Below are positions 1-62,305 of a stretch of 64,000 bases of DNA, one piece after another. The position numbers were made by a program, and so were the translations under genes. Numbering within the stretch: the stretch's first letter is position 1; the number at the start of each line of letters is the position of its first letter. Below the pieces are notes generated by a model. That model saw only the letters and a program-made list of their open reading frames with translations, was not told the DNA's origin and ran no database searches. Source of the stretch: a virus (lineage: Duplodnaviria > Heunggongvirae > Uroviricota > Caudoviricetes); the IMG/VR virus record IMGVR_UViG_3300034283_001314; one strand, written 5' to 3'.

Positions 1-2
1 GG

Positions 3-1844
3 CTTAAAAAGCTGTTCTCCACAACCACAATGGTTCGTAGAACAGCAGATGGTAAGATTAAAATAATTGATTTTGATGAAACACAGGCTATCGCTACTAA
101 CCTTAGAGATAGATACACTCGTCTTCACTCATCATCAATGAACTCTACTTATGAAAATTATTTAGCATATCAGCAAATAAGACAAGAATTATTTAGAGAT
201 TATGATTCAATGGATATGGACCCAATTATCGGTGCAGCATTGGATATTTACGCAGATGAATCAACGGCTAGAAATGAGTATGGTAGAGTGGTAGAAATTA
301 AAACTAACAACGAACAAATAAAAGAATTATTAGATAATTTATTTTATGATGTTCTTAATGTTGATTTCAATTTATGGCCTTGGACAAGAAATTTGGTTAA
401 ATATGGTGATTTCTTTTTACATTTAGAAATTGCAGATAAATTGGGTATAATAGGTGTTCAACCATTATCAACTTATGAAATTACAAGAGTAGAAGGATTT
501 GACCCAAATAATTGGCAAGCAGTTAAGTTTGTTCATACTCCATTAGCAACAAAATCTATGTTCGTTGCTGGACAAAAGCAAGAATATGAGAACTATGAAA
601 TGGCACACTTTAGATTATTAAGTGATACCAATTTCTTACCTTACGGAAAATCATTCTTAGAAAGTGCAAGAAGATTGTGGAAACAATTATCTTTAATGGA
701 AGATGCTATGATTATTCATAGAATTGTTAGAGCACCACAAAAGAGAATTTTTAAGATAGATGTAGGTGGTATTCCACCAAATGAAGTTGATCAGTATGTT
801 CAAAGAATTATCAACAAATCTAAAAAAACTCCATACGTTAACTCTACGACTGGTGAATATAACTTAAAGTATAATATTCAAAACTTAATGGAAGATTTCT
901 ATTTACCTGTTAGAGGTAGTGATAGTGGAACTGAAATTACAAACTTAGATGGATTAGAGTATTCACCTATTGAGGATATTGATTACTTAAAGAATAAAAT
1001 GTTTGCAGCTTTAAAAATACCTAAACAACATTTAGGATATATTGAAGATGGTAACTCAAAAGCAACATTAGCCGGACAAGATATGAGATTTGCAAAAACA
1101 ATCGAAAGATTACAAAGAATTGTAGTTGATGGATTAGAAAAGATTGCAATCGCCCATTTATACGCACAAGGTATTGATGATACGGAATTAACTAATTTTG
1201 AATTAAGTTTAACAGTACCATCAGTAATATACGAACAAGAAAAAGTAAATCTTTGGACAGCTAAAATTGAATTAATCCAAAAAATGGATCAATTAAAGAT
1301 TATATCTAAAGATTGGATGTATAAAAATATTCTTAATTTTACATTTGAAGAAGCAGAATTACAAAGAGAAGCATTAAAAGATGATGCTAAATTAACATTT
1401 GTATTAAATAACTTAGAACAAACCGGAACAGAAAAACCACAAGAGCAACAAGGTATGTTAGGACAACAACCTGAATTGGGTACTGATGAAGAAGGTAATC
1501 CTATGGATGTTCAACAAGGTGAGGAACAACCAGAAGAAGAACCACAACCAGAAGGACAACCTTTAGATATTGAAGATCAACTTTCTTCATTAGAAAAAGA
1601 ATTGGGAATGGATGGTGAAGTAGAAGAAAGTGCAAAACCAGTTGGAAGACCATCATCTCATACTACTTATGGAAAGGATAAATCACCATTTGGTAGAGAT
1701 CCGTTGGGTAAAAAAGACTGGAGAAATCAAAGTAAAAACGAAAATTTTATTGATATGATTAAAAAATCTATCAAAAAAGATGGAAAACAGATAATAAGAG
1801 AAGGAAATTCAATGATGGATGAACAAAATATCATAGAAAATTAG
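3..1844 (+). CDS. gp20: Portal vertex protein (T4 gp20-like), 5' end probably outside the window
   Basis: Motifs LMEDAMIIHRIVRAPQKRIFKIDVG and EDFYLPVRG..GTEITNL..IEDIDY. The frame stays open upstream of ATG30 (LKKLFSTTT). Acidic C-terminal tail. Confidence 0.93.
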   Translation, partial: LKKLFSTTTMVRRTADGKIKIIDFDETQAIATNLRDRYTRLHSSSMNSTYENYLAYQQIRQELFRDYDSMDMDPIIGAALDIYADESTARNEYGRVVEIKTNNEQIKELLDNLFYDVLNVDFNLWPWTRNLVKYGDFFLHLEIADKLGIIGVQPLSTYEITRVEGFDPNNWQAVKFVHTPLATKSMFVAGQKQEYENYEMAHFRLLSDTNFLPYGKSFLESARRLWKQLSLMEDAMIIHRIVRAPQKRIFKIDVGGIPPNEVDQYVQRIINKSKKTPYVNSTTGEYNLKYNIQNLMEDFYLPVRGSDSGTEITNLDGLEYSPIEDIDYLKNKMFAALKIPKQHLGYIEDGNSKATLAGQDMRFAKTIERLQRIVVDGLEKIAIAHLYAQGIDDTELTNFELSLTVPSVIYEQEKVNLWTAKIELIQKMDQLKIISKDWMYKNILNFTFEEAELQREALKDDAKLTFVLNNLEQTGTEKPQEQQGMLGQQPELGTDEEGNPMDVQQGEEQPEEEPQPEGQPLDIEDQLSSLEKELGMDGEVEESAKPVGRPSSHTTYGKDKSPFGRDPLGKKDWRNQSKNENFIDMIKKSIKKDGKQIIREGNSMMDEQNIIEN

Positions 1845-1862
1845 TTCTTATTTTAAGAGTAT

Positions 1863-1871
1863 ATATTTATA
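1863..1871 (+). promoter_or_regulatory. Putative late promoter motif ATATTTATA
   Basis: One of about 16 exact copies found just upstream of structural genes. Confidence 0.55.
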
Positions 1872-1890
1872 AATGGAACAATGTATATAA

Positions 1891-2781
1891 ATGAAACAAA
1901 TTAAACATTCAAAATTTAGAAACACAGGCTTCCTTTTCGAATTGCTTGTAAGACAAGTGACCTCAGATATTTTAAATAATAGAAAAGGTATCGCAGAAGG
2001 ATTATTAAAAAAGTATTTTAATTCAAAGACAGAATTGTCTAATGAATTGAAACTTTATCAATTTATTGTATCTGAAAAATATAATAGTGAGAATAGAGCT
2101 GAAAAGTTTGTAGATGCAGTAATTGACAGTAGAGCTAAATTAGACGAAAAGAAAATCTTGAAAGAGAAATATAATCTAATTAAAGAGATTAAAGATAATT
2201 ACTCTATTGATGAGTTTTTACGTTCTCAAATACCAAACTATAAGGTATTAGCATCAGTATATAAAATATTTGAATATAAGGTTAATACTGAACAAAATTA
2301 CGATCCAAAAGATTTTATTAATACAAAATATGCATTAGTAGAACATTTAACTGGAAAGGCTATTAATACAAAAGCAATTACCGAATCAACAATTGAAACT
2401 CAACTTAAAAAAGAAGATGAAGAAATTCGTTTGTTGACTTATAATGTATTAATTGAAAACTTTAATAAGAAATACACAAATCTTAATGAACAACAAAAAG
2501 GTTTATTAAAAGAATATATCAATTCATTTACTAATTCTGACAACTTAAAAAAATATGTTGTTAATGAAGTAAAAGTATTGGTTAAAGATTTTAAACAAAT
2601 TGGTACTAAAATAACCGATAAAGTTACAAAAATTAAATTAGCAGAAACAATTAACCAATTATCAAAAATAGTTAGTAGTAGTAAAATCAAAGATAATCAT
2701 ATCACATCGTTAATTATGTGTTATGAATTACAAAAGGAGTTAAAGGATGTCAAATCAACTATCCGAAGAACAACTATCTAA
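1891..2781 (+). CDS. Hypothetical head-module protein (alpha-helical, Lys-rich)
   Basis: 296-aa ORF directly after the portal, preceded by the late motif. Confidence 0.7.
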   Translation: MKQIKHSKFRNTGFLFELLVRQVTSDILNNRKGIAEGLLKKYFNSKTELSNELKLYQFIVSEKYNSENRAEKFVDAVIDSRAKLDEKKILKEKYNLIKEIKDNYSIDEFLRSQIPNYKVLASVYKIFEYKVNTEQNYDPKDFINTKYALVEHLTGKAINTKAITESTIETQLKKEDEEIRLLTYNVLIENFNKKYTNLNEQQKGLLKEYINSFTNSDNLKKYVVNEVKVLVKDFKQIGTKITDKVTKIKLAETINQLSKIVSSSKIKDNHITSLIMCYELQKELKDVKSTIRRTTI

Positions 2782-3382
2782 ACTGAAAGAAACTATTCGT
2801 AAAAGAATTAGAGAATTTACAGGAACTGCAAATGTAGCAGGATATGATACTCCACATGCTTTTGGTAAAAATACTAAAGGTGATAAAGAACGTAAGGTTA
2901 AATCTACTGGCGACGGTTTTGAATTAGCAGAAAATCGTTGGTTAGAATTAAAAAGAGATGAGACAAGAACTCCATCTCAAAAAGTTTCACATGGTATTAG
3001 AGAATTAAAAAATCAATTAGCAGAAATTGAAAAATTTGTTGGTTGGTATAATAGATTAAGAAGTGAAAACAATTTAGGGAAACATGATTTCTTTAAAAGA
3101 ACTAATACAAATATTTATAGAATCAAAGAAAGAATTATAAAAATAGCTAACTCTATTCAAGAAATTGATAAATCTGAAAATGAGGAAAGTATAGAGGAAG
3201 TTGATTCTAAAAAAGCAGGAGCATTAGAAAAATACGCAGTTACAGCTACACCAAAAGGTAGTAATCCTAATGCAAAGAGAGTAACATTAACAAAACCAGC
3301 ACCTAAAGCAACTGCACAAACACAAGCAGCTAGTTTTAGAAAGATGGATAAATATCAAACAATTAGATTAAAAAAGGCATAA
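2747..3382 (+). CDS. Hypothetical protein, probable internal head protein
   Basis: 211 aa. AAGGAG SD at 2734-2739. [IL]xE sites (IRE, LAE, IEE) and a GTANVAGYDTPHAF module. Confidence 0.6.
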   Translation: MSNQLSEEQLSKLKETIRKRIREFTGTANVAGYDTPHAFGKNTKGDKERKVKSTGDGFELAENRWLELKRDETRTPSQKVSHGIRELKNQLAEIEKFVGWYNRLRSENNLGKHDFFKRTNTNIYRIKERIIKIANSIQEIDKSENEESIEEVDSKKAGALEKYAVTATPKGSNPNAKRVTLTKPAPKATAQTQAASFRKMDKYQTIRLKKA

Positions 3383-3383
3383 A

Positions 3384-4040
3384 ATGATAAGATTAACTTC
3401 ATTGGTATCACCACAAGTATTGGGAAAACCAGTAAATTCAAAAACTTCAGTAGTTAAAGAAAACGAAGAACCTGAACAAAATGTAGCTAACGGATTACCT
3501 CAAACTCAGGGTGATGATAAAATCACTATGACTAGAGAATCTTTAAAAAATATAGTTAGAGAAGTAATGAAAGAGGAAGGTGAGTATCAAAAAATATTTC
3601 ATAAATTATTGAATAAATTTGGTGTAAACTCTCCGGCAGATTTAAGTGATGAACAAAAGAAAAAATTCTTTAGTTTAGCTAAGGGTGTTCAAACTGAATT
3701 AAAAGAAAGAATGAAAATCAAAGAAGCAGAATTAACTGGAAACCAATCTAAATTAGATATGGATAAAGATGGTGATATCGAAGCAGATGATTTAGCTAAA
3801 TTAAGAGCTAGTAAAAACGAATCAAACGATGGTGATAGAAGCATTGGAACACCAACAAAACAAGAAACTGATTTAAAGGGTGATATTGAAAAATTAAAAT
3901 CAAATATGCAAGTTATGACAAAAAACGGTGAATATTTTAAAAAAGCACAACGTGTGATGGCTGGATATCAAAAGGAATTAGTGGCAGCTACAAAAAGAAG
4001 ACAAGAAACTGACAAAAAAAGAGCAGCTAATAAAAAATAA
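3384..4040 (+). CDS. Putative internal head protein with EF-hand-like loop
   Basis: MIRLTSL leader; GNQSKLDMDKDGDIEADDLAKLR (DxDxDG loop). Confidence 0.55.
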   Translation: MIRLTSLVSPQVLGKPVNSKTSVVKENEEPEQNVANGLPQTQGDDKITMTRESLKNIVREVMKEEGEYQKIFHKLLNKFGVNSPADLSDEQKKKFFSLAKGVQTELKERMKIKEAELTGNQSKLDMDKDGDIEADDLAKLRASKNESNDGDRSIGTPTKQETDLKGDIEKLKSNMQVMTKNGEYFKKAQRVMAGYQKELVAATKRRQETDKKRAANKK

Positions 4041-4054
4041 TTAGAGAATAGTAT

Positions 4055-4891
4055 ATGTTGTTAAAGAAAGGTGATAATAACGAAAACGTAAAGTTAATGC
4101 AACAAAAGTTGGGTATCGAACCAGCTGTTACTAACTTTGGTCCAAAAACAGAAGCTGCAGTAAAAGCTTGGCAAGCTGCACATGGTTTGGATGCTGACGG
4201 AATAGTTGGTGATAAAACATGGGCAATGATTATGGCAGAAGGACAATCAGTTCCTGCTCCTGTTCAAACTCCAATAGCACCTATTGCTGGTTTAAAATTA
4301 GACAAACTAAAAGGACATATTCCAGATGCAGTAATCTCTATGATTCCTGATACGGCAGCTAAGTTCCAAATTAATACTCCATTAAGATTAGCACACTTCT
4401 TAGCACAATGTGGACATGAAAGTGGTGGATTCCGTTTAACACAAGAAAACTTAAACTATTCAGCAAAAGGTTTGAATGGTATCTTTAAAAAATATTTCCC
4501 AACAGAAGCAGCTGCAGCACCTTATAATAGAAACCCACAAAAGATTGCAAATAAAGTGTATTCTAATAGAATGGGTAACGGAACTGAAGCAAGTGGTGAT
4601 GGATATAAGTTTAGAGGTAGAGGATATATCCAATTGACCGGTAAAGATAACTACACCGCATTTGGTAAATCTATTGGAATTGATATGACTGTTAATCCAG
4701 ATTTAGTAGCATCTCAATACGCATTATTATCAGCAGCATGGTTCTTTACCAAAAACGGATTACATAAGATGGCTGATGAAGGAGCAAGTGATACAGTTGT
4801 AACAAAAATTACTAAAAGAGTAAATGGTGGAACAATTGGATTAGCAGATAGAATAAAACATTTTAAAGAATATTATCACTTATTATCATAG
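4055..4891 (+). CDS. Endolysin: peptidoglycan-binding domain plus glycoside hydrolase family 19
   Basis: PG_binding_1-like FGPKTEAAVKAWQ..GLDADGIVG. GH19 motifs RLAHFLAQCGHES, FRGRGYIQLTGKDNY, ITKRVNGG. Confidence 0.92.
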   Translation: MLLKKGDNNENVKLMQQKLGIEPAVTNFGPKTEAAVKAWQAAHGLDADGIVGDKTWAMIMAEGQSVPAPVQTPIAPIAGLKLDKLKGHIPDAVISMIPDTAAKFQINTPLRLAHFLAQCGHESGGFRLTQENLNYSAKGLNGIFKKYFPTEAAAAPYNRNPQKIANKVYSNRMGNGTEASGDGYKFRGRGYIQLTGKDNYTAFGKSIGIDMTVNPDLVASQYALLSAAWFFTKNGLHKMADEGASDTVVTKITKRVNGGTIGLADRIKHFKEYYHLLS

Positions 4892-4892
4892 T

Positions 4893-5483
4893 ATGGCAAA
4901 GAATTTAATTATAGAACATAACTTATTTGAAGGAAAAATTAAGGAAGACCAAAATGGTAAATTCTTAGTTAAGGGAGTACTTCAAAGAGCAGATGCAGCA
5001 AATCAAAACAATCGTATTTATCCAATGCATATTTTGCAGAGAGAATCTAAGAAATACGAAACCCTAATCAAAGAAAGAAGAGCATTGGGTGAATTAGACC
5101 ATCCAGAATCTACGGTGATTAACTTAAAGAATGTATCTCATAATATTGTAGAAATGTATTGGGAAGACAAAGATTTATGTGGGGTAGTAGAAGTATTATC
5201 AACACCAGCAGGAAACATCTTAAAAGAATTATTTAAACATAATATTCGTTTAGGTATTAGTAGTAGAGGATTAGGTTCAGTTAAACCAAACAGAGATGAA
5301 ACCGTAATGGTACAAGAAGATTTTGAATTAATTGGATTTGATTTTGTTTCTAATCCATCAACACATGGTGCATTTTTATCACCTACTAATATGAATGAAA
5401 GTGTTAGTAAGGAAGTAGATGTATGTGGAGATTTTTGTAGATCACAAGATTTAATGAGACAAATTATAGAGGAATTAAACTAA
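4893..5483 (+). CDS. gp21: Prohead core protein protease (T4 gp21-like)
   Basis: NxNNRIYP, ALGELDHP, NVSH, GISSRGLGS, FDFVSNPS. Confidence 0.93.
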   Translation: MAKNLIIEHNLFEGKIKEDQNGKFLVKGVLQRADAANQNNRIYPMHILQRESKKYETLIKERRALGELDHPESTVINLKNVSHNIVEMYWEDKDLCGVVEVLSTPAGNILKELFKHNIRLGISSRGLGSVKPNRDETVMVQEDFELIGFDFVSNPSTHGAFLSPTNMNESVSKEVDVCGDFCRSQDLMRQIIEELN

Positions 5484-5782
5484 TGATAAAGTTAAAAGAT
5501 TTATTGGGTGAAGCATATAATCCAGCAGAAGCATTCAACAAAAAGGTTAGTAAAATGACCGATAGAAATGAACATAGTGCAGCGGCAGTTGAATTGGCAA
5601 TCTATATGGATGATAAAGATGCAGTAAGAAAATTACAACAAATCAAAAAAGACCACGATAAAAGAGGTTCATTAACAACCGCAGATCAAAAGGAAAGAGA
5701 TGGTTTAGTTGATAAGTTATTAAAAAAAGCAAAGAAAGAATTATCCGAAAAGGACTATAAGTTAATCAATAGTTCATTTTAA
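5483..5782 (+). CDS. Small putative internal head protein (MIKLK-leader family)
   Basis: TAATG coupling to the protease gene; starts MIKLKDLLGE. Confidence 0.6.
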   Translation: MIKLKDLLGEAYNPAEAFNKKVSKMTDRNEHSAAAVELAIYMDDKDAVRKLQQIKKDHDKRGSLTTADQKERDGLVDKLLKKAKKELSEKDYKLINSSF

Positions 5783-5797
5783 TATATTTATAATAGT

Positions 5798-6433
5798 ATG
5801 ATAAAGTTAAAAAAATTAATGGGTGAAGGTGAAGATAAGAAAGCACCATCTCCAATGCACAACGAAGCAAGAAGACATTTCTTAGAAGTGATTTCAACAT
5901 ATAAAGCATTTGGGCCTAAATTAGCAGCAGAACAAGATTTAGCTAAAATAGCTGAAACATTAGGTGCTATTGTAGATGCAGCTCATACTTTTGCAATGAA
6001 AGAAAGTGGAAACAATTTTGATCCTGCAACGGTTAAAAGAAATATGAATGAATTGAACAAATTATCTGGTCAATTTGAAAAAACTGCAAACGAAGCAAAA
6101 CAACTTCAACAAAGATTAGCTTCTATGTATGAAGATATGGGATATGTATTGGGTAAGTATTTTGAAATAGCAGATATTGATGAAGAAACTGCAATGCATA
6201 GATTAGGACATAGAAAACCAAAGGTAGAACAATCATTAAAAATGAGAAATTTAATGCCTGAAGCAGAAGGACCGTGTTGGAAAGGATATCAACAAGTTGG
6301 AATGAAAATGAAAAACGGTAGAGAAGTTCCAAATTGTGTTCCTAAAAATGAAGCAATAGTTAAAGAAAATAAATCAGATTGTGGATGTAATAAAGTACAT
6401 GACTGTGGTTGTGGTGGACATCATAAACACTAA
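5798..6433 (+). CDS. Putative internal head protein (MIKLK-leader family) with Cys/His-rich modules
   Basis: MIKLKKLMGE; CWKGY..VPNCV module; C-terminal DCGCNKVHDCGCGGHHKH. Confidence 0.6.
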   Translation: MIKLKKLMGEGEDKKAPSPMHNEARRHFLEVISTYKAFGPKLAAEQDLAKIAETLGAIVDAAHTFAMKESGNNFDPATVKRNMNELNKLSGQFEKTANEAKQLQQRLASMYEDMGYVLGKYFEIADIDEETAMHRLGHRKPKVEQSLKMRNLMPEAEGPCWKGYQQVGMKMKNGREVPNCVPKNEAIVKENKSDCGCNKVHDCGCGGHHKH

Positions 6434-6450
6434 TAAAAAAGAATATAGAA

Positions 6451-6675
6451 ATGACAAATTATAGAACAAACAAAGTATTTACAGCAACATCAGGTTCAAC
6501 AATTGTTGCAGCACCTGATAAAAGTTGGGGAGTAATGAGAGGAACAAGTGGAGCTGGTACATTATATCTAACAAGTGGTTCAGTATCTATTGCAGATTTA
6601 CCAGTTGGACAACCTTTTCCTTGTTACCCAAATAGTGCATTAGTTAGTGCTGGTTCATTATATTTCTTATCATAA
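6451..6675 (+). CDS. Small beta-rich hypothetical protein (possible capsid decoration)
   Basis: 74 aa, Gly/Ser/Thr-rich, lies in the head module. Confidence 0.5.
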   Translation: MTNYRTNKVFTATSGSTIVAAPDKSWGVMRGTSGAGTLYLTSGSVSIADLPVGQPFPCYPNSALVSAGSLYFLS

Positions 6676-6698
6676 TAAGTTACAAATAAAAATAAAGA

Positions 6699-6938
6699 AT
6701 GATTATTATCGACAATGTCAACAATGACAATTTACAAAAAGCGTTAAAGGTTTTAAAAAAGAAATGGCAAGATAGTGGTGCAGTTGAAGAACTAAGAGAC
6801 AGAAAATACTTCACAAAACCATCTGCAAAAAAGAGAGTTCAAAACGAAAAAGCAGTTAGAAAGCAATTAAGAACTGCAAAAAACAACTTAGAATTCAAAA
6901 ATATTAAACAAATTCCTAAAAAATATATAGGACTTTAA
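6699..6938 (+). CDS. rpsU: Phage-encoded ribosomal protein bS21
   Basis: LQKALKVLKKK..SG.VEELRDRKYFTKPS.KKR matches the bS21 signature; 79 aa, basic. Confidence 0.9.
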   Translation: MIIIDNVNNDNLQKALKVLKKKWQDSGAVEELRDRKYFTKPSAKKRVQNEKAVRKQLRTAKNNLEFKNIKQIPKKYIGL

Positions 6939-6973
6939 TCGTTTAGTATAAAAAGTATATATGTATATTATAT

Positions 6974-7093
6974 ATTTCCTCTATTATTAGGAAATTTTAT
7001 TTTTACGATACTCGATGAATACTCTATCTTTATATAGAGTTCCGAAAGAATATCAAAATTCTATTTAAGCCGCCTAATCCTATAATGGCTTAA
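6974..7093 (+). promoter_or_regulatory. Structured 5' leader (three hairpins) of the scaffold/capsid operon
   Basis: ATTTCCT/AGGAAAT (6974-6995), ACTCTAT/ATAGAGT (7021-7040), TTAAGCC/GGCTTAA (7065-7093). Confidence 0.45.
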
Positions 7094-7115
7094 CAAATCA
7101 AAAGGACATAAAGAA

Positions 7116-8357
7116 ATGGCAAGTTCAAAATTATTGAAAGAAGCAATCGCTGATGCTAAGGCCGTTCGTGAAACTGCATTAGCAAACGCTAAGATTCAAT
7201 TGGAAGAGGCATTTACTCCAAGATTGAAATCAATGCTTTCTCAAAAGTTAAGAGCTGAAGCTGAAGACATGGAATCTGATGAAGATGAAATGAAAGAAGC
7301 ATACGGTGATGACGAAGAGAAAGAAGAAGAGAAAGTTGAAGAAGAATATTCTTCATCTAATATCGGTGCTGGCGATGGTGGTACAACATCAGGTCAGAAC
7401 AACAAAAAACCATCTTATCATGATGCAGGTGCAGAAGATAAGTTGGGTGCAGCTGGTGTAACATCAACATCTAAAAAACCAGAAGCAGAAGTAGAAGAGT
7501 ATGAATTTACAAAATCTATTACTGAAGCTGATGGTGAAGAAGAAGATTTAGCATCAGGTGACGTTAAATTTGCAACTGAAGGTGACGAATTCGATCAAGA
7601 AAATTCAGGTGATGAGCAATCAGCAATGAATAATGAAATGGACGGAAACGAAGACGAAATGCAAGGTGATGACCAATCAGAAGATGATTTGGATTTAGAA
7701 TCTATCATTAGAGAATTAGAGCAAGAATTGCACTATGGCGATAATGAAATGGAAGAAGAGTCTGATGAAGATAATATCGATTCTGATGAGTTTGATCAAA
7801 TGGGTGAAGAAGCTGACGATGTAGATACTGCAATGGATGCTGATAACCCAAATGCGGTTTACGCAAAAGAAGGTGAAGAAAACGATGAAGAAGAAATGAA
7901 CATCGAAGAAATCATCAAAGAATTAGAAGAAGAAGAAAAGGCTGAAGAAGAAGAAAAAGAGAAAGTAGAAGAAACTAAAGTATTGAAAGCAGAATTAGCA
8001 GAAGCTATTTCAGTAATCAAATCTTTGAAATCTACAATCAATGAAGTAAACTTATTGAATGCTAAATTGTTGTTCTCTAATAAATTGTTTAGAAGCTATA
8101 ACTTAACTAACGAGCAAAAATCTAAAGTAATTGACTCTTTAGACAGAACTACAAACGTTAGAGAAGTAAAATTAGTTTACTCAACATTAGCTGAAAGTAT
8201 GAAATTTTCTAACGCATCTACGAAAAAAGCTGTAAAGCAAATCGCAGAAGGTGCTAGTAGAGTTCAAAAATCAACAAAACCAACTGCACAATCAGTAATT
8301 AGTGAAGGTACATCTTACGCTAATAGATTTAAAGAGTTGGCTGGTATTTTAAAATAA
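7116..8357 (+). CDS. gp22: Prohead core scaffolding protein (gp22-like)
   Basis: Very acidic coiled-coil protein immediately upstream of the MCP; C-terminal RFKELAGI. Confidence 0.8.
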   Translation: MASSKLLKEAIADAKAVRETALANAKIQLEEAFTPRLKSMLSQKLRAEAEDMESDEDEMKEAYGDDEEKEEEKVEEEYSSSNIGAGDGGTTSGQNNKKPSYHDAGAEDKLGAAGVTSTSKKPEAEVEEYEFTKSITEADGEEEDLASGDVKFATEGDEFDQENSGDEQSAMNNEMDGNEDEMQGDDQSEDDLDLESIIRELEQELHYGDNEMEEESDEDNIDSDEFDQMGEEADDVDTAMDADNPNAVYAKEGEENDEEEMNIEEIIKELEEEEKAEEEEKEKVEETKVLKAELAEAISVIKSLKSTINEVNLLNAKLLFSNKLFRSYNLTNEQKSKVIDSLDRTTNVREVKLVYSTLAESMKFSNASTKKAVKQIAEGASRVQKSTKPTAQSVISEGTSYANRFKELAGILK

Positions 8358-8387
8358 TTAACAAAAAACAAATAAGGAAAAAACAAA

Positions 8388-10040
8388 ATGGCAAATTTTG
8401 ATTTAACAAAACTTATGGAAGGCAAGAACCCAACTTCAGTTATGCTTGAGCAAACTAGAGGTTTAAAAAACAAATGGGAAAAAACTGGTCTTTTAGAAGG
8501 AATAGGTGAAAAACCTCAACAACACGCTATGGCTGTATTGTTGGAAAACCAAGCTAAGCAATTGCTTGACGAGGCAACTCAAACTGGTACTTCAGCAGGT
8601 TCTGAAGAATGGTCTGGTGTAGCTTTACCATTAGTAAGAAGAATCTTCGGTGAAATCGCTGCAAAAGAATTCGTTTCTGTACAACCAATGAACTTACCTT
8701 CAGGTTTGATTTTCTACATGGATTTCAAATACGGTTCTGCACAAGCAGGTAACCCATCTTTCAATACTAAATCACTTTACGGTGGTACTGGTAACGGAAA
8801 ATTAGGTTCAACTGATGCTGCAGAAGGTGGTTTATACGGTGCTGGTAGATTCGGATATTCAGTTAACCAACAAGATGCAATCTTAGCTTCAGTAACTACT
8901 GCAAAAGTAACTTCTTTAGCTGATGTAAACTTTGATGGTGATTTATCTGCATCTGTTGCAGCTGGTACTATTTACAAATTGACTTTAACTTCTGCTTCAG
9001 TAGCTGCATTATCAGCTGATGTAAACGCAGTTAGAAGTTTCTATGTATCTGGTTCAACTACAAACGGTACAGTTTCAACATTCAGTAACTACTATCCTGC
9101 ATTGACTACATACTCTTCAAACGGTACTGTATCATTCATCGTAGCTGGTAACGCAATTTCTTCTGGTTCAACAGCATCTACAATTGGTGTAGTTTATTCT
9201 AAGCAACCAACTTCTATTTCTAGAGGTGATTTCGAAGATAGAGATCCAATCACAGGTGGTGATACTGCAGGTGGTACAGATTTAGCTATTCCTCAAATCG
9301 ATTTAGAATTGAAGAGTGAAGCAATCGTTGCTAAAACTCGTAAGTTAAAAGCTGTGTGGACTCCAGAGTTGGCACAAGACTTGAACGCTTACCATTCAAT
9401 TGATGCTGAAGCTGAATTAACTTCTATGTTATCTGAGTACATTTCTTTAGAAATCGACTTAGAAATCTTAGATATGTTAAAAGCTAACGCATTAACTACT
9501 GAATACTGGTCTTTAAAGGTTGGTAATGAGTGGAATGGTTCAAACTTTGAAATCGATTCTGATGTAGCTGCAGCTTCTGCATACACAAGAAACACTTGGT
9601 TCCAAACTTTAGGTACTAAGTTGAACAAAGTTTCAAACAAAATTCATCAATTAACTATGAGAGGTGGTGCTAACTTTATCGTTGCTTCTCCTGACGTATG
9701 TACTATTTTAGAATCAATCCCAGCGTTCACAGTATCAGCTGATAAAGATGCTAAATCATTCGCAGCAGGTGTAACTCAAGTTGGTTCAATCGCAAATAGA
9801 TACACAGTTTACAAGAACCCTTACATGACTGAGAACGTAATGTTGTTAGGTTACAAAGGTAACAACTTCTTAGAGACTGGTGCTGTTTACGCTCCATATG
9901 TACCATTGATTTTAACTCCTTTAGTATACGATCCAGATAACTTCACTCCAAGAAGAGGTGTTATGACTCGTTACGCTAAGAAGTTAGTAAGACCTGAATT
10001 CTTCGGTAAGATTGTAATCGGTGACTTAAACTTATTGTAA
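8388..10040 (+). CDS. gp23: Major capsid protein (T4 gp23-like)
   Basis: LPLVRR, VQPMNLPSGLIF, AKTRKLKAVWTPELAQDLNAYHSIDAEAEL, YAPYVPL, GVMTRY. Confidence 0.97.
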   Translation: MANFDLTKLMEGKNPTSVMLEQTRGLKNKWEKTGLLEGIGEKPQQHAMAVLLENQAKQLLDEATQTGTSAGSEEWSGVALPLVRRIFGEIAAKEFVSVQPMNLPSGLIFYMDFKYGSAQAGNPSFNTKSLYGGTGNGKLGSTDAAEGGLYGAGRFGYSVNQQDAILASVTTAKVTSLADVNFDGDLSASVAAGTIYKLTLTSASVAALSADVNAVRSFYVSGSTTNGTVSTFSNYYPALTTYSSNGTVSFIVAGNAISSGSTASTIGVVYSKQPTSISRGDFEDRDPITGGDTAGGTDLAIPQIDLELKSEAIVAKTRKLKAVWTPELAQDLNAYHSIDAEAELTSMLSEYISLEIDLEILDMLKANALTTEYWSLKVGNEWNGSNFEIDSDVAAASAYTRNTWFQTLGTKLNKVSNKIHQLTMRGGANFIVASPDVCTILESIPAFTVSADKDAKSFAAGVTQVGSIANRYTVYKNPYMTENVMLLGYKGNNFLETGAVYAPYVPLILTPLVYDPDNFTPRRGVMTRYAKKLVRPEFFGKIVIGDLNLL

Positions 10041-10067
10041 TCTCTGTAAGAGTGGAAAATAAATAAG

Positions 10068-10094
10068 AAAGGGGGTAGAAATACCTCCTTTTTT
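10068..10094 (+). terminator. Rho-independent terminator after the MCP
   Basis: AAAGGGGGTA-GAAA-TACCTCCTTT followed by T run. Confidence 0.85.
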
Positions 10095-10109
10095 ATGTCT
10101 AAAACTTTT

Positions 10110-10118
10110 ATATTTATA
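10110..10118 (+). promoter_or_regulatory. Putative late promoter motif
   Basis: ATATTTATA just after the terminator, 16 nt before the ATG. Confidence 0.55.
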
Positions 10119-10134
10119 TTAAATAGAATTTAAA

Positions 10135-11031
10135 ATGTCAAGAGTAAAAAGAGTATTTCCGGATTTACCATTTATAACCGCTTCTACAAATACAAAAATA
10201 ATAGTAACAGATGCAGATAATTACGCATTAGGATATACCCATATCAATACATTAATAGATACAATTGATAGTGGTGGATTAGCTACCGATGGTGCCAACA
10301 TATTTAATGGCAATCAAATAGTAATGGGTGGAGTATTTGCATCAGAATATTCCGAATTTTATAATGGATTAAGTGTAGATGGAAATCTTAATATTAATGG
10401 TGATATTTATGTTAACAATATAATTTCATCATCAATTTTATATCAAAGTGGTTCTACTAAATTTGGTGATTCATTGGATGATACACATACATTTACAGGT
10501 TCAGTTCAAATAACCGGTTCATTACATGTAAATACTCATCCCGTTGTATTAGGACAATTAAGTTGGGCAAGATACGATGATACGCAATATACAACATCAT
10601 CTTTTAGAAGTGTCACCGTTGCAGGTGGTGAAGTAACTATTCCAAATAATGGAGGATATTCGGTAACAACTCATTTACATTCCGATATTCAATTTTACAA
10701 TACGGGTTCACAAAGAATTTATCCGGAAAAAGAAGGTGATGTATATGTTATGACTGTTACATTTAAAGCAAAGACTGCTAATGCAAACGCGGGTTGGATG
10801 AGAATTCAATTAGATAGTACCGGATTGACCCCATATCGTAGAGTTGGTAAGGATTTATTTTTTGGAAAAGGAAATGATGAATGGCACGATTATCACGAAG
10901 TATTTCAATTTTATGCAGATACGGATTTTGTAGCAAATGGTAATCAATGGAAAATTAAAGCAAATGGTGCAACGGTTGATATTGCAAATGTCATTTACTT
11001 TATACAACGAACACAAAATCATCTTATATAA
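10135..11031 (+). CDS. Short fibre/decoration protein
   Basis: Shares SSS..SGSxKFG..DDxHxFTGS with fibre 25079; beta-sandwich-like C terminus. Confidence 0.6.
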   Translation: MSRVKRVFPDLPFITASTNTKIIVTDADNYALGYTHINTLIDTIDSGGLATDGANIFNGNQIVMGGVFASEYSEFYNGLSVDGNLNINGDIYVNNIISSSILYQSGSTKFGDSLDDTHTFTGSVQITGSLHVNTHPVVLGQLSWARYDDTQYTTSSFRSVTVAGGEVTIPNNGGYSVTTHLHSDIQFYNTGSQRIYPEKEGDVYVMTVTFKAKTANANAGWMRIQLDSTGLTPYRRVGKDLFFGKGNDEWHDYHEVFQFYADTDFVANGNQWKIKANGATVDIANVIYFIQRTQNHLI

Positions 11032-11034
11032 ATT

Positions 11035-11064
11035 AAAAAGAGTAGTTTTATCTACTCTTTTTTT
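11035..11064 (+). terminator. Rho-independent terminator
   Basis: AAAAAGAGTAG/CTACTCTTTTT stem followed by T run. Confidence 0.8.
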
Positions 11065-11091
11065 ATATTACATATTTATCTAAAAGTTACT

Positions 11092-12144
11092 ATGGATAAA
11101 ATATATATTATAACAGCTGGGGATTCATTTACGGATTCACATATGCCATACATTACAACGGATAGTAAACATACTTATTTAGGATTAAGTGATAAATTAA
11201 CTGATTATAAAGAATTGTGTCTTCCTGATTATTCATTAAAATATCAATATTTTTTAATAAATGAATTATGGGAAAGTGGTGTAAAATTTGCTTTTTATAA
11301 TGTAGCAAAAGGTTCTGCTGGTAATCATGTAATATTTCATAGATATAAACAAAAAGTTAACGAATTATTGAAAAAAGGGGTTAATCCAAAAAATATATAC
11401 GGAACATTACAATTGAGTGGCTTGGCAAGAGCTACTAATCCGGTATATGAAATTGAATTGAATGTATCAAACATAGAAGGTGCAGAATGGGATTATATAG
11501 ATAACTTAAATCCAACTGTAAATTTATATAAAGATGTATTAGAATCACACATTTCAAATTTAGAAAATATCATTCAATGGAACAAAGATAATGGTATTGA
11601 ACATTTTAATATGTTTTTTGGATGGGCAATTTTTTATGAAAATGAATTAATTGAGTATAATTTAAAAGAAAGATTTGAATTAATTGATAGAAATTATTTT
11701 ACTTATTTTCAATACAAAGAAAGAGTAGATGTAATAAAACATAATTGTGTTGGTGTAAAACAAATTCTTAAAACAATATTTGGAATTAAAGAAGAATACA
11801 TAATTCAAAGTGGAAAATATGGTGGAATGACAGAATTTGTAGCAGATAGAACACATGATAATCAAAAATATTACATGTCTCATTATGATTCCCATTTAAA
11901 TACATATGGTAATTACAAATGGTATGCTGAATATTTTAGAAACTTATATGTTCAATGGGGAATTTTAAATGAAGTTAATTCAATAGAACAAAATCAAAAA
12001 TTAAATAATATCTTACATAAAATATTTAATGTAAATACAGATTATTTTATAGATAGTTATAAATATAGACAAGAAGATAGTATTAGTAACGAATTAAAAG
12101 TAAGAATTAGGGATGAAAAATACAAAAAGTTTTTTATAACTTAA
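11092..12144 (+). CDS. SGNH/GDSL hydrolase-like protein
   Basis: AGDSFT (block I), NVAKGSAGN (block II), DSHLN (block V). Confidence 0.6.
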   Translation: MDKIYIITAGDSFTDSHMPYITTDSKHTYLGLSDKLTDYKELCLPDYSLKYQYFLINELWESGVKFAFYNVAKGSAGNHVIFHRYKQKVNELLKKGVNPKNIYGTLQLSGLARATNPVYEIELNVSNIEGAEWDYIDNLNPTVNLYKDVLESHISNLENIIQWNKDNGIEHFNMFFGWAIFYENELIEYNLKERFELIDRNYFTYFQYKERVDVIKHNCVGVKQILKTIFGIKEEYIIQSGKYGGMTEFVADRTHDNQKYYMSHYDSHLNTYGNYKWYAEYFRNLYVQWGILNEVNSIEQNQKLNNILHKIFNVNTDYFIDSYKYRQEDSISNELKVRIRDEKYKKFFIT

Positions 12145-12151
12145 CATATTG

Positions 12152-12160
12152 ATATTTATA
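12152..12160 (+). promoter_or_regulatory. Putative late promoter motif
   Basis: ATATTTATA upstream of the neck genes. Confidence 0.55.
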
Positions 12161-12173
12161 CAAAAGGATTATA

Positions 12174-13439
12174 ATGGCAGCAGATTTAGTAACATCAATT
12201 AATTGGCCGGGTAGTTCATCCTTTGAAACAGGATCAACACCATTTGGTTTATATGATAGTGAAAGTTTATTCAGACAACACGCCGATAAAGTAGGTGATT
12301 GGGTAGCTAAAAGATTAGGGTATCCTGTACAAAATGTAGAGTTATTACCTGATAATATTTATGCATGTTTTGAAGAATCTATTTCAGAGTATTCAGCACA
12401 AGTAAATGCATTTAATATTCGTAACAACCTATACAATATGTTAGGTCAGCAACAAAATGAAAATACTAATCATACAGGTAATTATGTTGAAGGTGCAAAT
12501 ACAAACCAAGTTATTACGATAGCTAACTCATATGGTATAGAAGCGAATGTAGGTGGAAATAGAGGTGCAACGGTTCATAAAGGTTCATTGAGATTGATTG
12601 GTGGAGTTCAAAGGTATGATTTGGGTGCATTGAGTCCAACATCACAAAGTTATATTGAAAGTAATGGTGGTGCAAAATTAGCAACCGTACCATCAGGTTC
12701 ATTAGAAAGTGGTTCACACTATGGTCAAGATATTATTATCACAAAAGTTTTCTACGAAGGAGTTCCGGCCATTAGCAGATTCTTTGACCCTTATGCAGTT
12801 TCGGCAAAAGGTACATTGAACTTATTAGATGAGTTTGGATTTAGTTCATTTTCTCCGGCGGCACAATTCGTATTAATGCCAGTTTATGAAGATTTATTAA
12901 GAATATCTGCAATTGAATTTAATGACCAGGTTCGTAGAAGTACATATAGTTTTAATATTAACAATAACATATTAGAAATATTCCCAATTCCTGGAACATC
13001 TACTTATAATCCAGATTTGGTTTGGTTTGAATATGTGTTATCGGATGAAAGAACAGCATCATCAATTGTAAATAAGAGTGGTGTAAATGGTTCTATTATT
13101 AGTGATTACGCTAATATAAAATATGATAGTATGACTTATACCTCTATCAATTCAGTTGGTAAACAATGGATATGGAAATATACATTAGCATTATCAAAAG
13201 AATTATTAGGTGGTATTAGAGAGAAATATGCAACTATTCCTATACCTGATGGTGAAGTATCATTAGATGGTGCATCGTTGAGAGCAGAAGCACAAAACGA
13301 TAAAGATAGATTATACGAACAATTAAGACAGGATTTAGAGGAATTAAGTAGACCTAAACAAATGGAGTATAAAGCACAAGAAGCTGAGCAAGTACAAAAG
13401 ATGTTGAAAAATATTCCGTTACCATTTTATATAGGATAA
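12174..13439 (+). CDS. gp13: Neck protein (T4 gp13-like)
   Basis: RLGYPVQNVEL; WIWKYTLALSKELLG..REKY..IPIP.GEVSLDG; C-terminal FYIG. Confidence 0.85.
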   Translation: MAADLVTSINWPGSSSFETGSTPFGLYDSESLFRQHADKVGDWVAKRLGYPVQNVELLPDNIYACFEESISEYSAQVNAFNIRNNLYNMLGQQQNENTNHTGNYVEGANTNQVITIANSYGIEANVGGNRGATVHKGSLRLIGGVQRYDLGALSPTSQSYIESNGGAKLATVPSGSLESGSHYGQDIIITKVFYEGVPAISRFFDPYAVSAKGTLNLLDEFGFSSFSPAAQFVLMPVYEDLLRISAIEFNDQVRRSTYSFNINNNILEIFPIPGTSTYNPDLVWFEYVLSDERTASSIVNKSGVNGSIISDYANIKYDSMTYTSINSVGKQWIWKYTLALSKELLGGIREKYATIPIPDGEVSLDGASLRAEAQNDKDRLYEQLRQDLEELSRPKQMEYKAQEAEQVQKMLKNIPLPFYIG

Positions 13440-13444
13440 GATAG

Positions 13445-13903
13445 ATGCCAAGATTTGTAGCACCGAGAGATTATAATTTTTTCCAAAATATCAGTAGAGA
13501 ATTGGTAGATGCAGTTGTGCAAACTCAAGTGTTTGTATTTAAACTTATAGCACAAAATAGTAAAGTTAATTTATATGGAGAATCATTAGATAAATCTTAT
13601 TATGATGGTGTTTCAATATTTGCTATGGTTGAATATAATGATGAAAATGTAGATTATGAAAGTGGTTTAGGACAAGATACAGTTCAAGAAGTAACATTTA
13701 GATTTAACCAAGATACCTGTATTGTAAAAGATATAATGCCTGAAATTGGAGATGTTATACAATTCGTAGATGGCTATTATGAAATTACAAATACAAATGC
13801 ATCTCAATTAGTAGGTGGACAAGCATCAAATAATTTTGGTATAACTTGTAATACTTTCTTAATGAGAAAATCACAATTAAACATAGAACCTAGGAATATA
13901 TAA
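13445..13903 (+). CDS. gp14: Head closure/neck protein (gp14-like)
   Basis: NLYGE and PEIGDVI..YYEI motifs; follows gp13. Confidence 0.7.
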   Translation: MPRFVAPRDYNFFQNISRELVDAVVQTQVFVFKLIAQNSKVNLYGESLDKSYYDGVSIFAMVEYNDENVDYESGLGQDTVQEVTFRFNQDTCIVKDIMPEIGDVIQFVDGYYEITNTNASQLVGGQASNNFGITCNTFLMRKSQLNIEPRNI

Positions 13904-14982: not shown

Positions 14983-15341
14983 TGGGAATATTACAACATA
15001 TATTACCATACGTTTCAGTAAGAAATGCAAAACTAGAATATGTAGAAACTACTGCAACGGATTATATTTATGAACTTAAGGGATATAAATTACCAAAAGA
15101 TATCATCGATAAAAATATGAAGAAAGTTGTGAAAGCAAGAACATCCAGTATTCAGTTAGATATAAACCAACAAAACATTGGTAGTTACGATTATAGTGTT
15201 AGTAATTATGGCAATTCAGTAAGATTTACATTACCTAGAGAAAATTTTCCAATTTTATATGCCGATGAAGCACGCACAATAATTGTTCCATATATTGATG
15301 AAAACGATGATTTACAAGTAACAGGAACTTTTAGTAAATAA
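14982..15341 (+). CDS. Hypothetical neck/collar-associated protein
   Basis: TAATG-coupled; C terminus IDENDDLQVTGTF resembles the gp15 end LDNDDEVHIAGKF. Confidence 0.55.
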   Translation: MGILQHILPYVSVRNAKLEYVETTATDYIYELKGYKLPKDIIDKNMKKVVKARTSSIQLDINQQNIGSYDYSVSNYGNSVRFTLPRENFPILYADEARTIIVPYIDENDDLQVTGTFSK

Positions 15342-15985: not shown

Positions 15986-15986
15986 A

Positions 15987-17468: not shown

Positions 17469-17517
17469 ACAATAAAATGATTTCAATAGAAAGATTATAT
17501 TAAGATATTTATAAATA

Positions 17518-17970: not shown

Positions 17971-18010
17971 TACTTATATATAATACCTTAATAATAACAT
18001 AGATACATAG

Positions 18011-38756: not shown

Positions 38757-38796
38757 TTAGAATATTATAACATAATTTATAAGGAGAAACAATAAA

Positions 38797-41052: not shown

Positions 41053-41095
41053 TTAAAAAAAGATATACTTATAATAAGTAAAGGAGAAATAAACA

Positions 41096-51948: not shown

Positions 51949-51979
51949 TTTGATTTGTAACGAAAATAGATTATATTTG
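51949..51979 (+). promoter_or_regulatory. Bacteroidota sigma-A-type promoter (-33 TTTG / -7 TAnnTTTG)
   Basis: TTTG 51949-51952, 19-nt spacer, TATATTTG 51972-51979; ATG follows at 51984. Confidence 0.65.
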
Positions 51980-51983
51980 TTAC

Positions 51984-58973: not shown

Positions 58974-59005
58974 TTTGGTAGTTTCAAATAATTATCGTAT
59001 CTTTA
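58974..59005 (+). promoter_or_regulatory. Bacteroidota-like promoter variant upstream of gp32
   Basis: TTTG 58974-58977, 20-nt spacer, TATCTTTA 58998-59005. Confidence 0.45.
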
Positions 59006-62152: not shown

Positions 62153-62305
62153 ATGAAATGTTTAAAAAGTACAAAGACTGGTAAAATTATCAGAGTATCA
62201 AACAAAGAAGCTTACAACGCAACAAGTGAATGGAAATTCATTCCTAAGAGTGAATGGAAAGCAGAAGTAAGACCATCTAAAAAAGAAGAAAAAGAAAGTA
62301 AATAA
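62153..62305 (+). CDS. Small basic protein, 50 aa (not in the ORF track)
   Basis: MKCLKSTKTGKIIRVSNKEAYNATSEWKFIPKSEWK...; GGAGGA SD at 62138-62143; TAATG overlap with the helicase. Confidence 0.7.
   Translation: MKCLKSTKTGKIIRVSNKEAYNATSEWKFIPKSEWKAEVRPSKKEEKESK

What the first reader, a model, noticed from the sequence alone, without database searches (positions are those of the whole stretch)
6699..6938. bS21 lacking the anti-SD-sequestering Tyr, with SD motifs on high-copy late genes: a possible ribosome specificity switch
Established: Bacteroidota ribosomes hold the anti-SD in a pocket of bS21/bS18/bS6 involving a C-terminal bS21 Tyr (KAAY-type context, recalled from Flavobacterium), and host mRNAs mostly lack SDs. 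Phage bS21 genes next to capsid genes are already known. Seen: this bS21 reads KPSAKKRVQNEKAVR, with Arg at that position. SD-like motifs lie 9-10 nt before scaffold (AAGGA 7102), MCP (TAAGGA 8373), sheath (TAAGGAG 38780) and tube (AAGGAG 41081). bS21 itself, gp32, UvsX, PolA, PhyH, CysC and RNR have none. Inference: phage bS21 frees the anti-SD so late ribosomes favour SD-led structural mRNAs.
Basis: partly seen in the sequence, partly recalled or inferred. Interest (0 to 1): 0.8.

Follow-up and report, generated by a model that had tools for sequence, protein, structure and literature searches.

The report
Phage bS21 beside Shine-Dalgarno late genes
An uncultured T4-like phage, probably of Bacteroidota, carries its own ribosomal protein bS21 without the tyrosine that hides the ribosome's Shine-Dalgarno reader and puts Shine-Dalgarno sites on its most abundant virion genes, but related phages show that the lost tyrosine is not what decides this.

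Summary
ORF 6699-6938 is a true bS21. Arg sits at the ungapped equivalent of F. johnsoniae Tyr54, followed by a 25-residue basic tail. AAGGA(G) motifs lie 9-10 nt before the scaffold, capsid, sheath and tube genes at the stated coordinates. They are conserved in relatives and enriched about fourfold over shuffled leaders. In this clade, structural genes carry them three times as often as other genes (12/43 against 12/132, p=0.004). Intergenic promoters of Bacteroidota type (TTTG/TAnnTTT[AG]) point to a Shine-Dalgarno-blind host.

The proposed cause does not hold. A complete relative with Arg54 bS21 (G008) has no such motifs (9/207 leaders, none of the four major genes). A complete relative with Tyr54 bS21 (G013) has the strongest late enrichment (14/36 against 22/147, all four major genes). 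Over 22 bS21 clusters, residue 54 and motif use are unrelated.

Four of five bS21-carrying lineages (four whole genomes plus this clade's window and fragment) show late enrichment, and bS21-free Flavobacterium phage immuto shows none. Ribosome retuning by phage bS21 therefore stays plausible but unproven.

This scan noted the same theme on at least five other genomes. I rate it a new variant of the known phage bS21 kind.

The parts
6699..6938 (+). Phage bS21 gene (79 aa). Its leader is A-rich with no SD.
   Evidence: Pfam PF01165 at 46.9 bits and TIGR00030 at 46.6 bits. Leader pairing energy is +0.8 kcal/mol.
6858..6860 (+). Codon 54 (AGA, Arg), the position of Tyr54 in F. johnsoniae bS21.
   Evidence: Ungapped HMMER alignment to 7JIL chain z and 9I5V. 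Conserved across the clade.
6861..6935 (+). C-terminal extension of 25 residues, net charge +6, ending in the conserved IPKK[YF]IGL.
   Evidence: Bacteroidota bacterial bS21 ends 9-10 residues after Tyr54 with an acidic tail. The model predicts helix 43-70.
5784..5792 (+). Late-promoter-like ATATTTATA before the block orf211-orf74-bS21.
   Evidence: 21 copies in the window against 6.35 expected, 18 of them on the + strand. The same motif precedes late genes of immuto.
7102..7106 (+). SD-like AAGGA, 9 nt before the scaffold ATG (gene 7116-8357).
   Evidence: Invariant in 10 relatives whose scaffold proteins are 72-92% identical.
8373..8378 (+). SD-like TAAGGA, 9 nt before the major capsid protein ATG (gene 8388-10040; Pfam Gp23, E 1.7e-77).
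12164..12168 (+). SD-like AAGGA, 5 nt before the neck/head-completion gene 12174-13439.
38780..38786 (+). SD-like TAAGGAG, 10 nt before the tail sheath ATG (gene 38797-41052).
   Evidence: Conserved in clade relatives L177 and L179.
41081..41086 (+). SD-like AAGGAG, 9 nt before the tail tube ATG (gene 41096-41584).
51949..51979 (+). Bacteroidota-type promoter TTTG-N19-TATATTTG before the family A polymerase gene (51984).
   Evidence: Consensus taken from Baez 2019, PMC6847099.
58974..59005 (+). Bacteroidota-type promoter TTTGGTAG...TCGTATCTTTA before the gp32-like gene (59107).
   Evidence: The same consensus recurs about a dozen times in intergenic DNA of clade relative G415.

Best explanation
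The ORF is a late-expressed phage copy of ribosomal protein bS21 of Bacteroidota type. It most likely replaces host bS21 on 30S subunits late in infection.

The phage's AAGGA(G) motifs are true ribosome-binding sites. They are concentrated on late genes, above all the most abundant virion genes, in a phage whose early genes and promoters fit a Shine-Dalgarno-blind Bacteroidota host.

The most likely link is that phage bS21, through its divergent C-terminal half as a whole, holds the 16S 3' tail less tightly than host bS21. Late ribosomes could then read SD sites. In this clade that half carries Arg54 plus a basic 25-residue extension where the host has a short acidic end.

Loss of Tyr54 is neither necessary nor sufficient for this.

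Shown: identity of the protein, Arg54, the tail, the reality, conservation and late bias of the motifs, and the promoter type. Inferred: late expression, entry into the ribosome, and any effect on the anti-SD.
For: Identity and Arg54.

Late setting: the gene lies in the head module behind an ATATTTATA late-type motif.

SD motifs are real. Leaders carry them at 23.7% against 6.4% after shuffling. There is a positional peak at -12. Guanines are raised at -12 to -10, exactly where immuto and G008 have adenines and where adenines help translation in F. johnsoniae (PMC6847099). The motifs are invariant in relatives.

Late bias, structural block against rest: window clade 12/43 against 12/132, p=0.004; G010 9/30 against 19/229, p=0.0017; G013 14/36 against 22/147, p=0.004.

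bS21-free immuto has about 4% and none of the four major genes.

Host type: promoter architecture and the nearest solved bS21 structures, both Bacteroidota.

No bS18 or bS6 homologue was found in five related records, so in them bS21 is the only anti-SD pocket protein found.

Published experiment: Y54A or C-terminal deletion of F. johnsoniae bS21 raises translation of strong-SD reporters 3- to 5-fold and leaves SD-less reporters unchanged for Y54A (PMC9976891).
Against: - G008 carries an Arg54 bS21 in the same head-module position, yet its genome is SD-free (9/207 leaders).
- G013 keeps Tyr54 and a short tail, yet has the strongest late SD enrichment. No single bS21 feature tracks SD use.
- G416 has the tailed Arg54 form but shows no significant late bias (9/60 against 16/161). 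Three of its four major genes do carry the motif.
- The phage motifs are moderate in strength (-5 to -9.6 kcal/mol). In F. johnsoniae only strong SDs gained from mutant bS21, and a weak-SD mRNA did worse.
- Arg can stack on adenine, and the tail holds a conserved aromatic residue. The pocket may therefore be kept.
- No expression, incorporation or structural data exist. The host is inferred, not known.
- Only about five independent lineages were compared.
Confidence: 0.35

Rival explanations
1. Supply or maintenance role. Phage bS21 only keeps host 30S subunits replete and active after host gene expression is shut off, or blunts the host rpsU feedback. It does not change mRNA choice. The SD-like leaders work independently of it. 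They might be read by the natural bS21-free ribosome subpopulation, or by hosts whose ribosomes are only partly SD-blind.
For: bS21 type and SD use vary independently. SD-rich loci make up 3 of 9 aromatic-54 clusters and 4 of 13 non-aromatic clusters. G008 has bS21 without SDs, and G013 has Tyr54 with SDs. A bS21-free ribosome pool that prefers SD mRNAs exists in F. johnsoniae (PMC9976891).
Against: This does not explain why SD sites are confined to late genes, while the gp32-like gene, presumably highly expressed, and other replication genes lack them. If the phage relied on bS21-free ribosomes, making more bS21 late would work against it.
Confidence: 0.28
2. The Tyr54-to-Arg change is itself the switch that frees the anti-SD, and the SD-led late genes evolved to exploit it.
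For: Arg54 is confirmed and conserved. Y54A alone gives a 3-fold gain on rpsU'-gfp in vivo and in vitro. This clade does combine Arg54 with SD-led major virion genes.
Against: The Arg54 phage G008 and its group have no SDs on any of the four major genes, and 4.3% genome-wide. The Tyr54 phages G013, L056 and L217/218 are SD-rich. Arg and Tyr alternate inside one SD-poor phage bS21 clade with 96% branch support.
Confidence: 0.08
3. The host reads SD sites normally, either because it is not a Bacteroidia-type organism or because it is a lineage with an open anti-SD. SD sites on highly expressed genes would then be ordinary and unrelated to bS21.
For: The host is unknown. The MCP is as close to a Microcystis phage (52.5%) as to immuto (50.4%). 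No CRISPR-like match was found in 401 genomes of the class of a Flavobacteriales genome (G001). The bS21 tree does not resolve the origin of the clade.
Against: Outside the structural block only 9% of leaders carry the motif, against 5% after shuffling. That is far below SD-using organisms. The promoters are of -33 TTTG / -7 TAnnTTT[AG] type and no sigma-70 consensus was found. The nearest solved bS21 structures are both Bacteroidota. Accessory genes are shared with Flavobacterium phage immuto at 55-70% identity.
Confidence: 0.12
4. The AAGGA(G) motifs are not anti-SD pairing sites. They would be purine-rich enhancers or binding or processing sites for a phage late-gene RNA factor.
For: Whole leaders are conserved, not only the GGA core. 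The motifs are short.
Against: The motifs keep a fixed 9-10 nt distance from the ATG, peak at -12, are complementary to CCUCCUUU, and exceed composition-matched shuffles about fourfold.
Confidence: 0.05

Closest known systems
Phage-encoded bS21 of freshwater Bacteroidetes myoviruses (Chen et al. 2022, ISME Commun, PMC9723584)
   Same: The bS21 gene lies inside the conserved head module beside the protease and MCP. Late expression is proposed, with substitution into host ribosomes. Hosts are inferred to be Bacteroidota.
   Different: In those phages all 61 proteins keep an aromatic residue at position 54, and the gene lies on the opposite strand. Here the residue is Arg54, there is a 25-residue basic tail, the gene is on the same strand, and the phage is a T4-like relative of immuto. 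That paper did not analyse ribosome-binding sites of phage genes.
F. johnsoniae bS21 Y54A and C-terminal deletion mutants; bS21-free specialised ribosomes (McNutt et al. 2023, PMC9976891; Jha et al. 2021, PMC7797042)
   Same: This is what the phage protein would 'work like': a bS21 without Tyr54 that lets ribosomes read SD sites while still translating SD-less mRNAs.
   Different: Those are engineered host mutants, and the gain was seen with very strong SDs (rpsU, below -13 kcal/mol). The phage motifs are at -5 to -9.6 kcal/mol. Arg is not Ala. The phage gene has no SD of its own, unlike Flavobacteriales rpsU.
Pelagibacter phage HTVC008M bS21 (Mizuno et al. 2019, PMC6375957)
   Same: A T4-like myovirus encoding bS21. 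That protein was shown to enter E. coli ribosomes (as cited). It is 49% identical to the first 45 residues here.
   Different: Its host is alphaproteobacterial (SAR11). No anti-SD sequestration question arises.
Francisella tularensis bS21 paralogues (Trautmann et al. 2022, PMC9578407)
   Same: Exchange of bS21 variants changes which mRNAs ribosomes translate. This is the known precedent for bS21-based ribosome specialisation.
   Different: The paralogues are cellular, not viral. I know this only from the abstract.
Flavobacterium phage vB_FspM_immuto (MW353175)
   Same: Same gene order in the head, tail and replication modules. The MCP is 50% identical in protein, with 73% identity over its aligned DNA segments. 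It shares the late-promoter motif and several accessory genes.
   Different: It has no bS21. No SD precedes its scaffold, MCP, sheath or tube genes, and 1-6% of leaders carry the motif overall.

Membership tests
Ribosomal protein bS21 (PF01165 / TIGR00030) | Profile score above the curated cut-off | tested here: met
   46.9 bits against 27, and 46.6 bits against 28.95.
Ribosomal protein bS21 (PF01165 / TIGR00030) | Conserved core residues (ALK...K.K, R33, R35, KPS, R46, A52) | tested here: met
   These columns are invariant in alignments A2 and A3.
Ribosomal protein bS21 (PF01165 / TIGR00030) | Helical bS21 fold | tested here: inconclusive
   The AF2 model (pLDDT 72.9) has helices 9-26, 28-36 and 43-70. 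Foldseek found only weak hits (E>1), all of them mitoribosomal bS21 chains.
Ribosomal protein bS21 (PF01165 / TIGR00030) | Incorporation into the 30S subunit | not testable with these tools
   Needs biochemistry.
Bacteroidia-type anti-SD-sequestering bS21 (Jha 2021) | Signature Tyr (aromatic) at position 54, stacking on A1534 | tested here: not met
   Arg54 in an ungapped alignment to 7JIL and 9I5V.
Bacteroidia-type anti-SD-sequestering bS21 (Jha 2021) | Short, weakly basic or acidic C-terminus | tested here: not met
   25 residues after position 54 with net charge +6. Bacterial examples have 9-10 residues ending in acidic EE or EEA.
Bacteroidia-type anti-SD-sequestering bS21 (Jha 2021) | Closest relatives are Bacteroidota bS21 | tested here: inconclusive
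   The two best solved-structure hits are P. gingivalis and F. johnsoniae, by 8-13 bits. The tree leaves the clade's position unresolved. The genome scan used a pattern biased towards Bacteroidota.
Phage bS21 clades of Chen et al. 2022 | Gene inside the head-protein module | tested here: met
   It lies between the prohead protease (4893-5483) and the scaffold and MCP genes.
Phage bS21 clades of Chen et al. 2022 | Encoded on the strand opposite to the head genes | tested here: not met
   Same strand as all neighbours.
Phage bS21 clades of Chen et al. 2022 | Aromatic residue at position 54 | tested here: not met
   Arg.
Phage bS21 clades of Chen et al. 2022 | Bacteroidota host | tested here: inconclusive
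   Bacteroidota-type promoters are concentrated in intergenic DNA. No CRISPR or isolate evidence was obtained.
Shine-Dalgarno ribosome-binding site | At least 5 nt complementary to the 16S 3' tail, 5-10 nt before the start codon | tested here: met
   AAGGA, TAAGGA, TAAGGAG and AAGGAG with 9-10 nt spacers.
Shine-Dalgarno ribosome-binding site | Enrichment and fixed position relative to chance | tested here: met
   23.7% against 6.4% shuffled, with a peak at -12.
Shine-Dalgarno ribosome-binding site | Actual pairing with the anti-SD during initiation | not testable with these tools
   Needs reporters with compensatory mutations, or toeprinting.

The most novel reading that the evidence does not exclude
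Phage bS21 acts as a late-infection ribosome converter. It displaces host bS21 on SD-blind Bacteroidota ribosomes and, through its divergent C-terminal half, leaves the 16S 3' tail free. The SD-led mRNAs for capsid, scaffold, sheath and tube then gain priority over host and early mRNAs. The effect would belong to phage bS21 in general, not to residue 54.
Probability: 0.3. Interest if true: 0.85.

Novelty: new variant of a known kind. Interest (0 to 1): 0.55.

Why it matters
Why phages so often carry bS21, and little else of the ribosome, is an open question. Bacteroidota ribosomes hide their anti-SD behind bS21.

A family of Bacteroidota-type phages puts SD sites almost only on late virion genes and encodes bS21 in the same late module. 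This gives the question a concrete experiment in an existing genetic system: the F. johnsoniae rpsU strains and reporters.

The comparison made here also prevents a wrong turn. It shows that the obvious candidate residue, Tyr54, does not explain the pattern. Experiments should therefore compare whole phage proteins and their C-terminal halves, with natural controls: G008-type (Arg54, no SDs), G013-type (Tyr54, SDs) and immuto (no bS21).

Tried and rejected
The 224-kb contig holding homologue P0015 could not be read.
- PHROGs left most structural genes unnamed.
- Searching 401 genomes of the class of a Flavobacteriales genome (G001) with window 1-20000 gave no CRISPR-spacer-like hit. It returned only low-complexity matches and weak rpsU similarity.
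- The genome-contig scan for bS21 used a pattern derived from Bacteroidota-like rows, so its all-Bacteroidota result is biased and is not used as host evidence.
- MCP similarity does not fix the host: a Microcystis phage is as close as immuto.
- The strict TTTG...TAnnTTTG promoter scan of the window alone was weak. It became clear only when the last base was relaxed to A or G and matches were counted in intergenic DNA. Immuto, the intended positive control, shows no enrichment.
- The 6936-7125 intergenic fold is not unusual (z=-0.68). The consensus terminator scan found nothing.
- The AF2 model and Foldseek search added nothing beyond helices.
- The phylogenetically independent pairs test had only 3 pairs and no power.
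- I considered that the long basic tail, rather than Arg54, tracks SD use. I rejected this as a general rule because G013 is SD-rich with a short tail.

Full report
**What is there.** The window is part of an uncultured T4-like myovirus. It has 31.8% G+C and every called gene lies on the + strand. The order is portal, prohead protease (4893-5483), three small ORFs, ORF 6699-6938, an acidic scaffold protein (7116-8357) and a gp23-type major capsid protein (8388-10040; Pfam E 1.7e-77). Neck, fibre, sheath, tube and baseplate genes follow. A replication block starts at 51984.

ORF 6699-6938 is a true bS21. It scores 46.9 bits on PF01165 and 46.6 bits on TIGR00030, both well above the curated cut-offs. 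An exhaustive search found only a small family of close relatives. All other bS21 proteins are below about 55% identity.

**The Tyr54 position.** HMMER aligns residues 1-54 without a gap to the bS21 of F. johnsoniae (7JIL) and P. gingivalis (9I5V). These are the two best solved-structure hits, at 41.2 and 36.6 bits. The next best hit, from a firmicute, scores 28.3 bits. Phage Arg54 falls on their Tyr54.

Jha et al. describe Tyr54 as a Bacteroidetes signature that stacks on A1534 where the 16S 3' tail turns towards bS18 and bS6 (PMC7797042). Arg54 is kept in every full-length close homologue, together with a 25-residue basic tail ending IPKK[YF]IGL. Bacterial Bacteroidota bS21 proteins end 9-10 residues after Tyr54 with an acidic stretch.

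Chen et al. reported an aromatic residue at position 54 in all 61 phage bS21 proteins of their freshwater Bacteroidetes phages, and placed the gene on the opposite strand (PMC9723584). This protein is therefore a different variant of a known kind.

- Frequency: across the window, 14 of 60 leaders carry AGGA, GGAG or GAGG at -18 to -5. Only 6.4% of shuffled versions of the same leaders do (p=2e-5).
- Pairing energy: with a duplex-energy measure, 18 of 61 leaders reach -5 kcal/mol or lower, against 9.3% of shuffles.
- Position: the first G of GGA peaks at -12. Guanines are raised at -12 to -10. Immuto and G008 have adenines there, and adenines at those positions promote initiation in F. johnsoniae (PMC6847099).
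- Conservation: the motifs are invariant in ten IMG/VR relatives whose scaffold proteins are only 72-92% identical. They are also kept before sheath and tube in two further records.
- Gene class: the four most abundant virion proteins rank 1, 5, 10 and 14 of 59 by pairing energy (p=0.004).

**Late against early.** Inside the window the difference is not significant: 12/44 against 2/15, p=0.48. A helicase-based scan found G415, a 126-kb fragment of a clade relative. It is 68-94% identical in DNA over the segments of window 17.8-64 kb that align, and runs 84 kb beyond the window's end. With its 132 genes outside the structural block as the comparison set, late genes carry the motif three times as often: 12/43 against 12/132, p=0.004. 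The non-structural genes are only slightly above the shuffled expectation (9% against 5%).

**Host.** No genome is held for the window and no CRISPR-like match was found. MCP similarity does not decide the host phylum, because a Microcystis phage is as close as Flavobacterium phage immuto.

Promoter architecture does point to Bacteroidota. The published consensus is -33 TTTG and -7 TANNTTTG (PMC6847099). I searched for TTTG-N17-21-TAnnTTT[AG] on the sense strand and counted how many matches end in intergenic DNA.

| Record | Matches in intergenic DNA | Intergenic share of sequence | p |
|---|---|---|---|
| Window | 4 of 6 | 3.6% | 2.5e-5 |
| G415 | 20 of 28 | 7.4% | 4e-17 |
| G416 | 22 of 34 | 8.6% | 7e-16 |
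| G010 | 22 of 42 | 6.6% | 1e-15 |
| G013 | 9 of 13 | 6.6% | 1e-8 |

The clade consensus is TTTGGTAG...TCGTATCTTTA. Examples in the window lie before the polymerase gene (51949-51979) and the gp32-like gene (58974-59005). Together with the bS21 affinities and the accessory genes shared with immuto, I put a Bacteroidota host at roughly 80%.

**Test of the proposed cause.** A scan with an MCP alignment and a second bS21 scan gave about 50 related loci with bS21, nearly all 1.2-2.7 kb upstream of the MCP gene. Residue 54 is Arg, Tyr, His, Leu or Lys among them. Four whole related genomes were also read. The motif counts are below.

| Genome | bS21 | Structural block | Rest of genome | p | Major genes with motif |
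|---|---|---|---|---|---|
| G008 (202 kb) | Arg54, short tail, head module | 2/40 | 7/167 | 0.69 | 0 of 4 |
| G416 (195 kb) | Arg54, tailed | 9/60 | 16/161 | 0.34 | 3 of 4 |
| G010 (253 kb) | Arg54, gene elsewhere in the genome | 9/30 | 19/229 | 0.0017 | 2 of 4 |
| G013 (157 kb) | Tyr at an ungapped position 54 | 14/36 | 22/147 | 0.004 | 4 of 4 |
| Immuto | none | about 4% overall | | | 0 of 4 |

A phage bS21 clade with 96% branch support mixes Arg54 and Tyr54 members, and all of them are SD-poor. Among 22 bS21 clusters, SD-rich loci make up 3 of 9 with an aromatic residue at 54 and 4 of 13 without. Residue 54 therefore does not track SD use. A long basic tail does not track it either, because G013 is SD-rich with a short tail.

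**What remains plausible.** Four of five bS21-carrying lineages show late SD enrichment or SD sites on most major virion genes. These are the four whole genomes plus this clade's window and fragment. The bS21-free relative shows none. No bS18 or bS6 homologue was found in the five related records searched, so in them bS21 is the only pocket protein found.

Published experiments show that F. johnsoniae ribosomes with bS21 Y54A, or with bS21 lacking its C-terminal region, translate strong-SD reporters 3- to 5-fold better. For Y54A, SD-less reporters were unaffected (PMC9976891). The same paper found no gain for a weak-SD mRNA, and the phage motifs are moderate in strength.

A retuning role for phage bS21 is thus a reasonable and testable hypothesis. 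I give it about 0.3-0.35. Nothing here shows it, and G008 is a clear exception.

**Prior notes and tools.** Earlier notes of this scan describe the same theme on at least five other genomes. One states that the lost tyrosine is not the explanation. I reached that conclusion from my own comparisons before reading those notes, and they are not independent evidence.

**Verdict.** This is a new variant of the known phage bS21 kind, of moderate to good interest. Its main value is as a concrete experimental lead that comes with natural controls.

Noticed in passing
window 1863-59037 (21 copies, e.g. 5784, 10110, 12152, 38748): ATATTTATA occurs 21 times against 6.35 expected. 18 copies are on the + strand, mostly just upstream of late genes. 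The same motif precedes late genes of Flavobacterium phage immuto and is the top intergenic 8-mer in G008. It is likely the late promoter of this phage family.
   Followed up: partly
window 51949-51984: The Bacteroidota-type promoter before the family A polymerase gene ends only 4 nt before the ATG. That mRNA would be leaderless or nearly so. The same layout (4-5 nt) is seen in G415 and at three sites in G416.
   Followed up: no
window 62153-62305: A 50-codon ORF between the exonuclease and helicase genes has the most canonical SD in the window (GGAGGA, -9.3 kcal/mol). This is unusual for the SD-poor replication block.
   Followed up: no
window 6939-7115: This 177-nt gap after bS21 is unusually long. 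It holds a weak terminator-like hairpin (TTTCCT...AGGAAA followed by a T run), a TATCTTTA box at 7025, and a conserved hairpin TTAAGCC...GGCTTAA just before the scaffold leader. The overall fold is not unusual (z=-0.68).
   Followed up: partly
L015:2028-4393 and L017:3315-4459; window 5483, 5798: Runs of consecutive head-module genes all start MIKLK..L..E (five in a row in L015), just upstream of bS21. This fits a shared capsid-targeting N-terminal peptide, as another note on this genome suggests.
   Followed up: no
L197 (G010:C1:209657-212815): In the 253-kb relative G010 the bS21 gene lies about 105 kb from the MCP gene, not in the head module. It has a long lysine-rich tail. The gene has therefore moved within this phage family.
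   Followed up: no
G415 and G416 intergenic DNA (L307-L323): The top intergenic 8-mers include tRNA T-loop words (GGTTCGAATC). This fits the large tRNA arrays in these genomes that other notes report beyond the window's end.
   Followed up: no
window 6699-6935, residues 72-79: The bS21 tail keeps a conserved aromatic residue (IPKK[YF]IGL; IPKKF or IPTKY in more distant tailed forms). This residue could contact rRNA in place of Tyr54. It is a caveat to the reading that the sequestering aromatic is missing.
   Followed up: no
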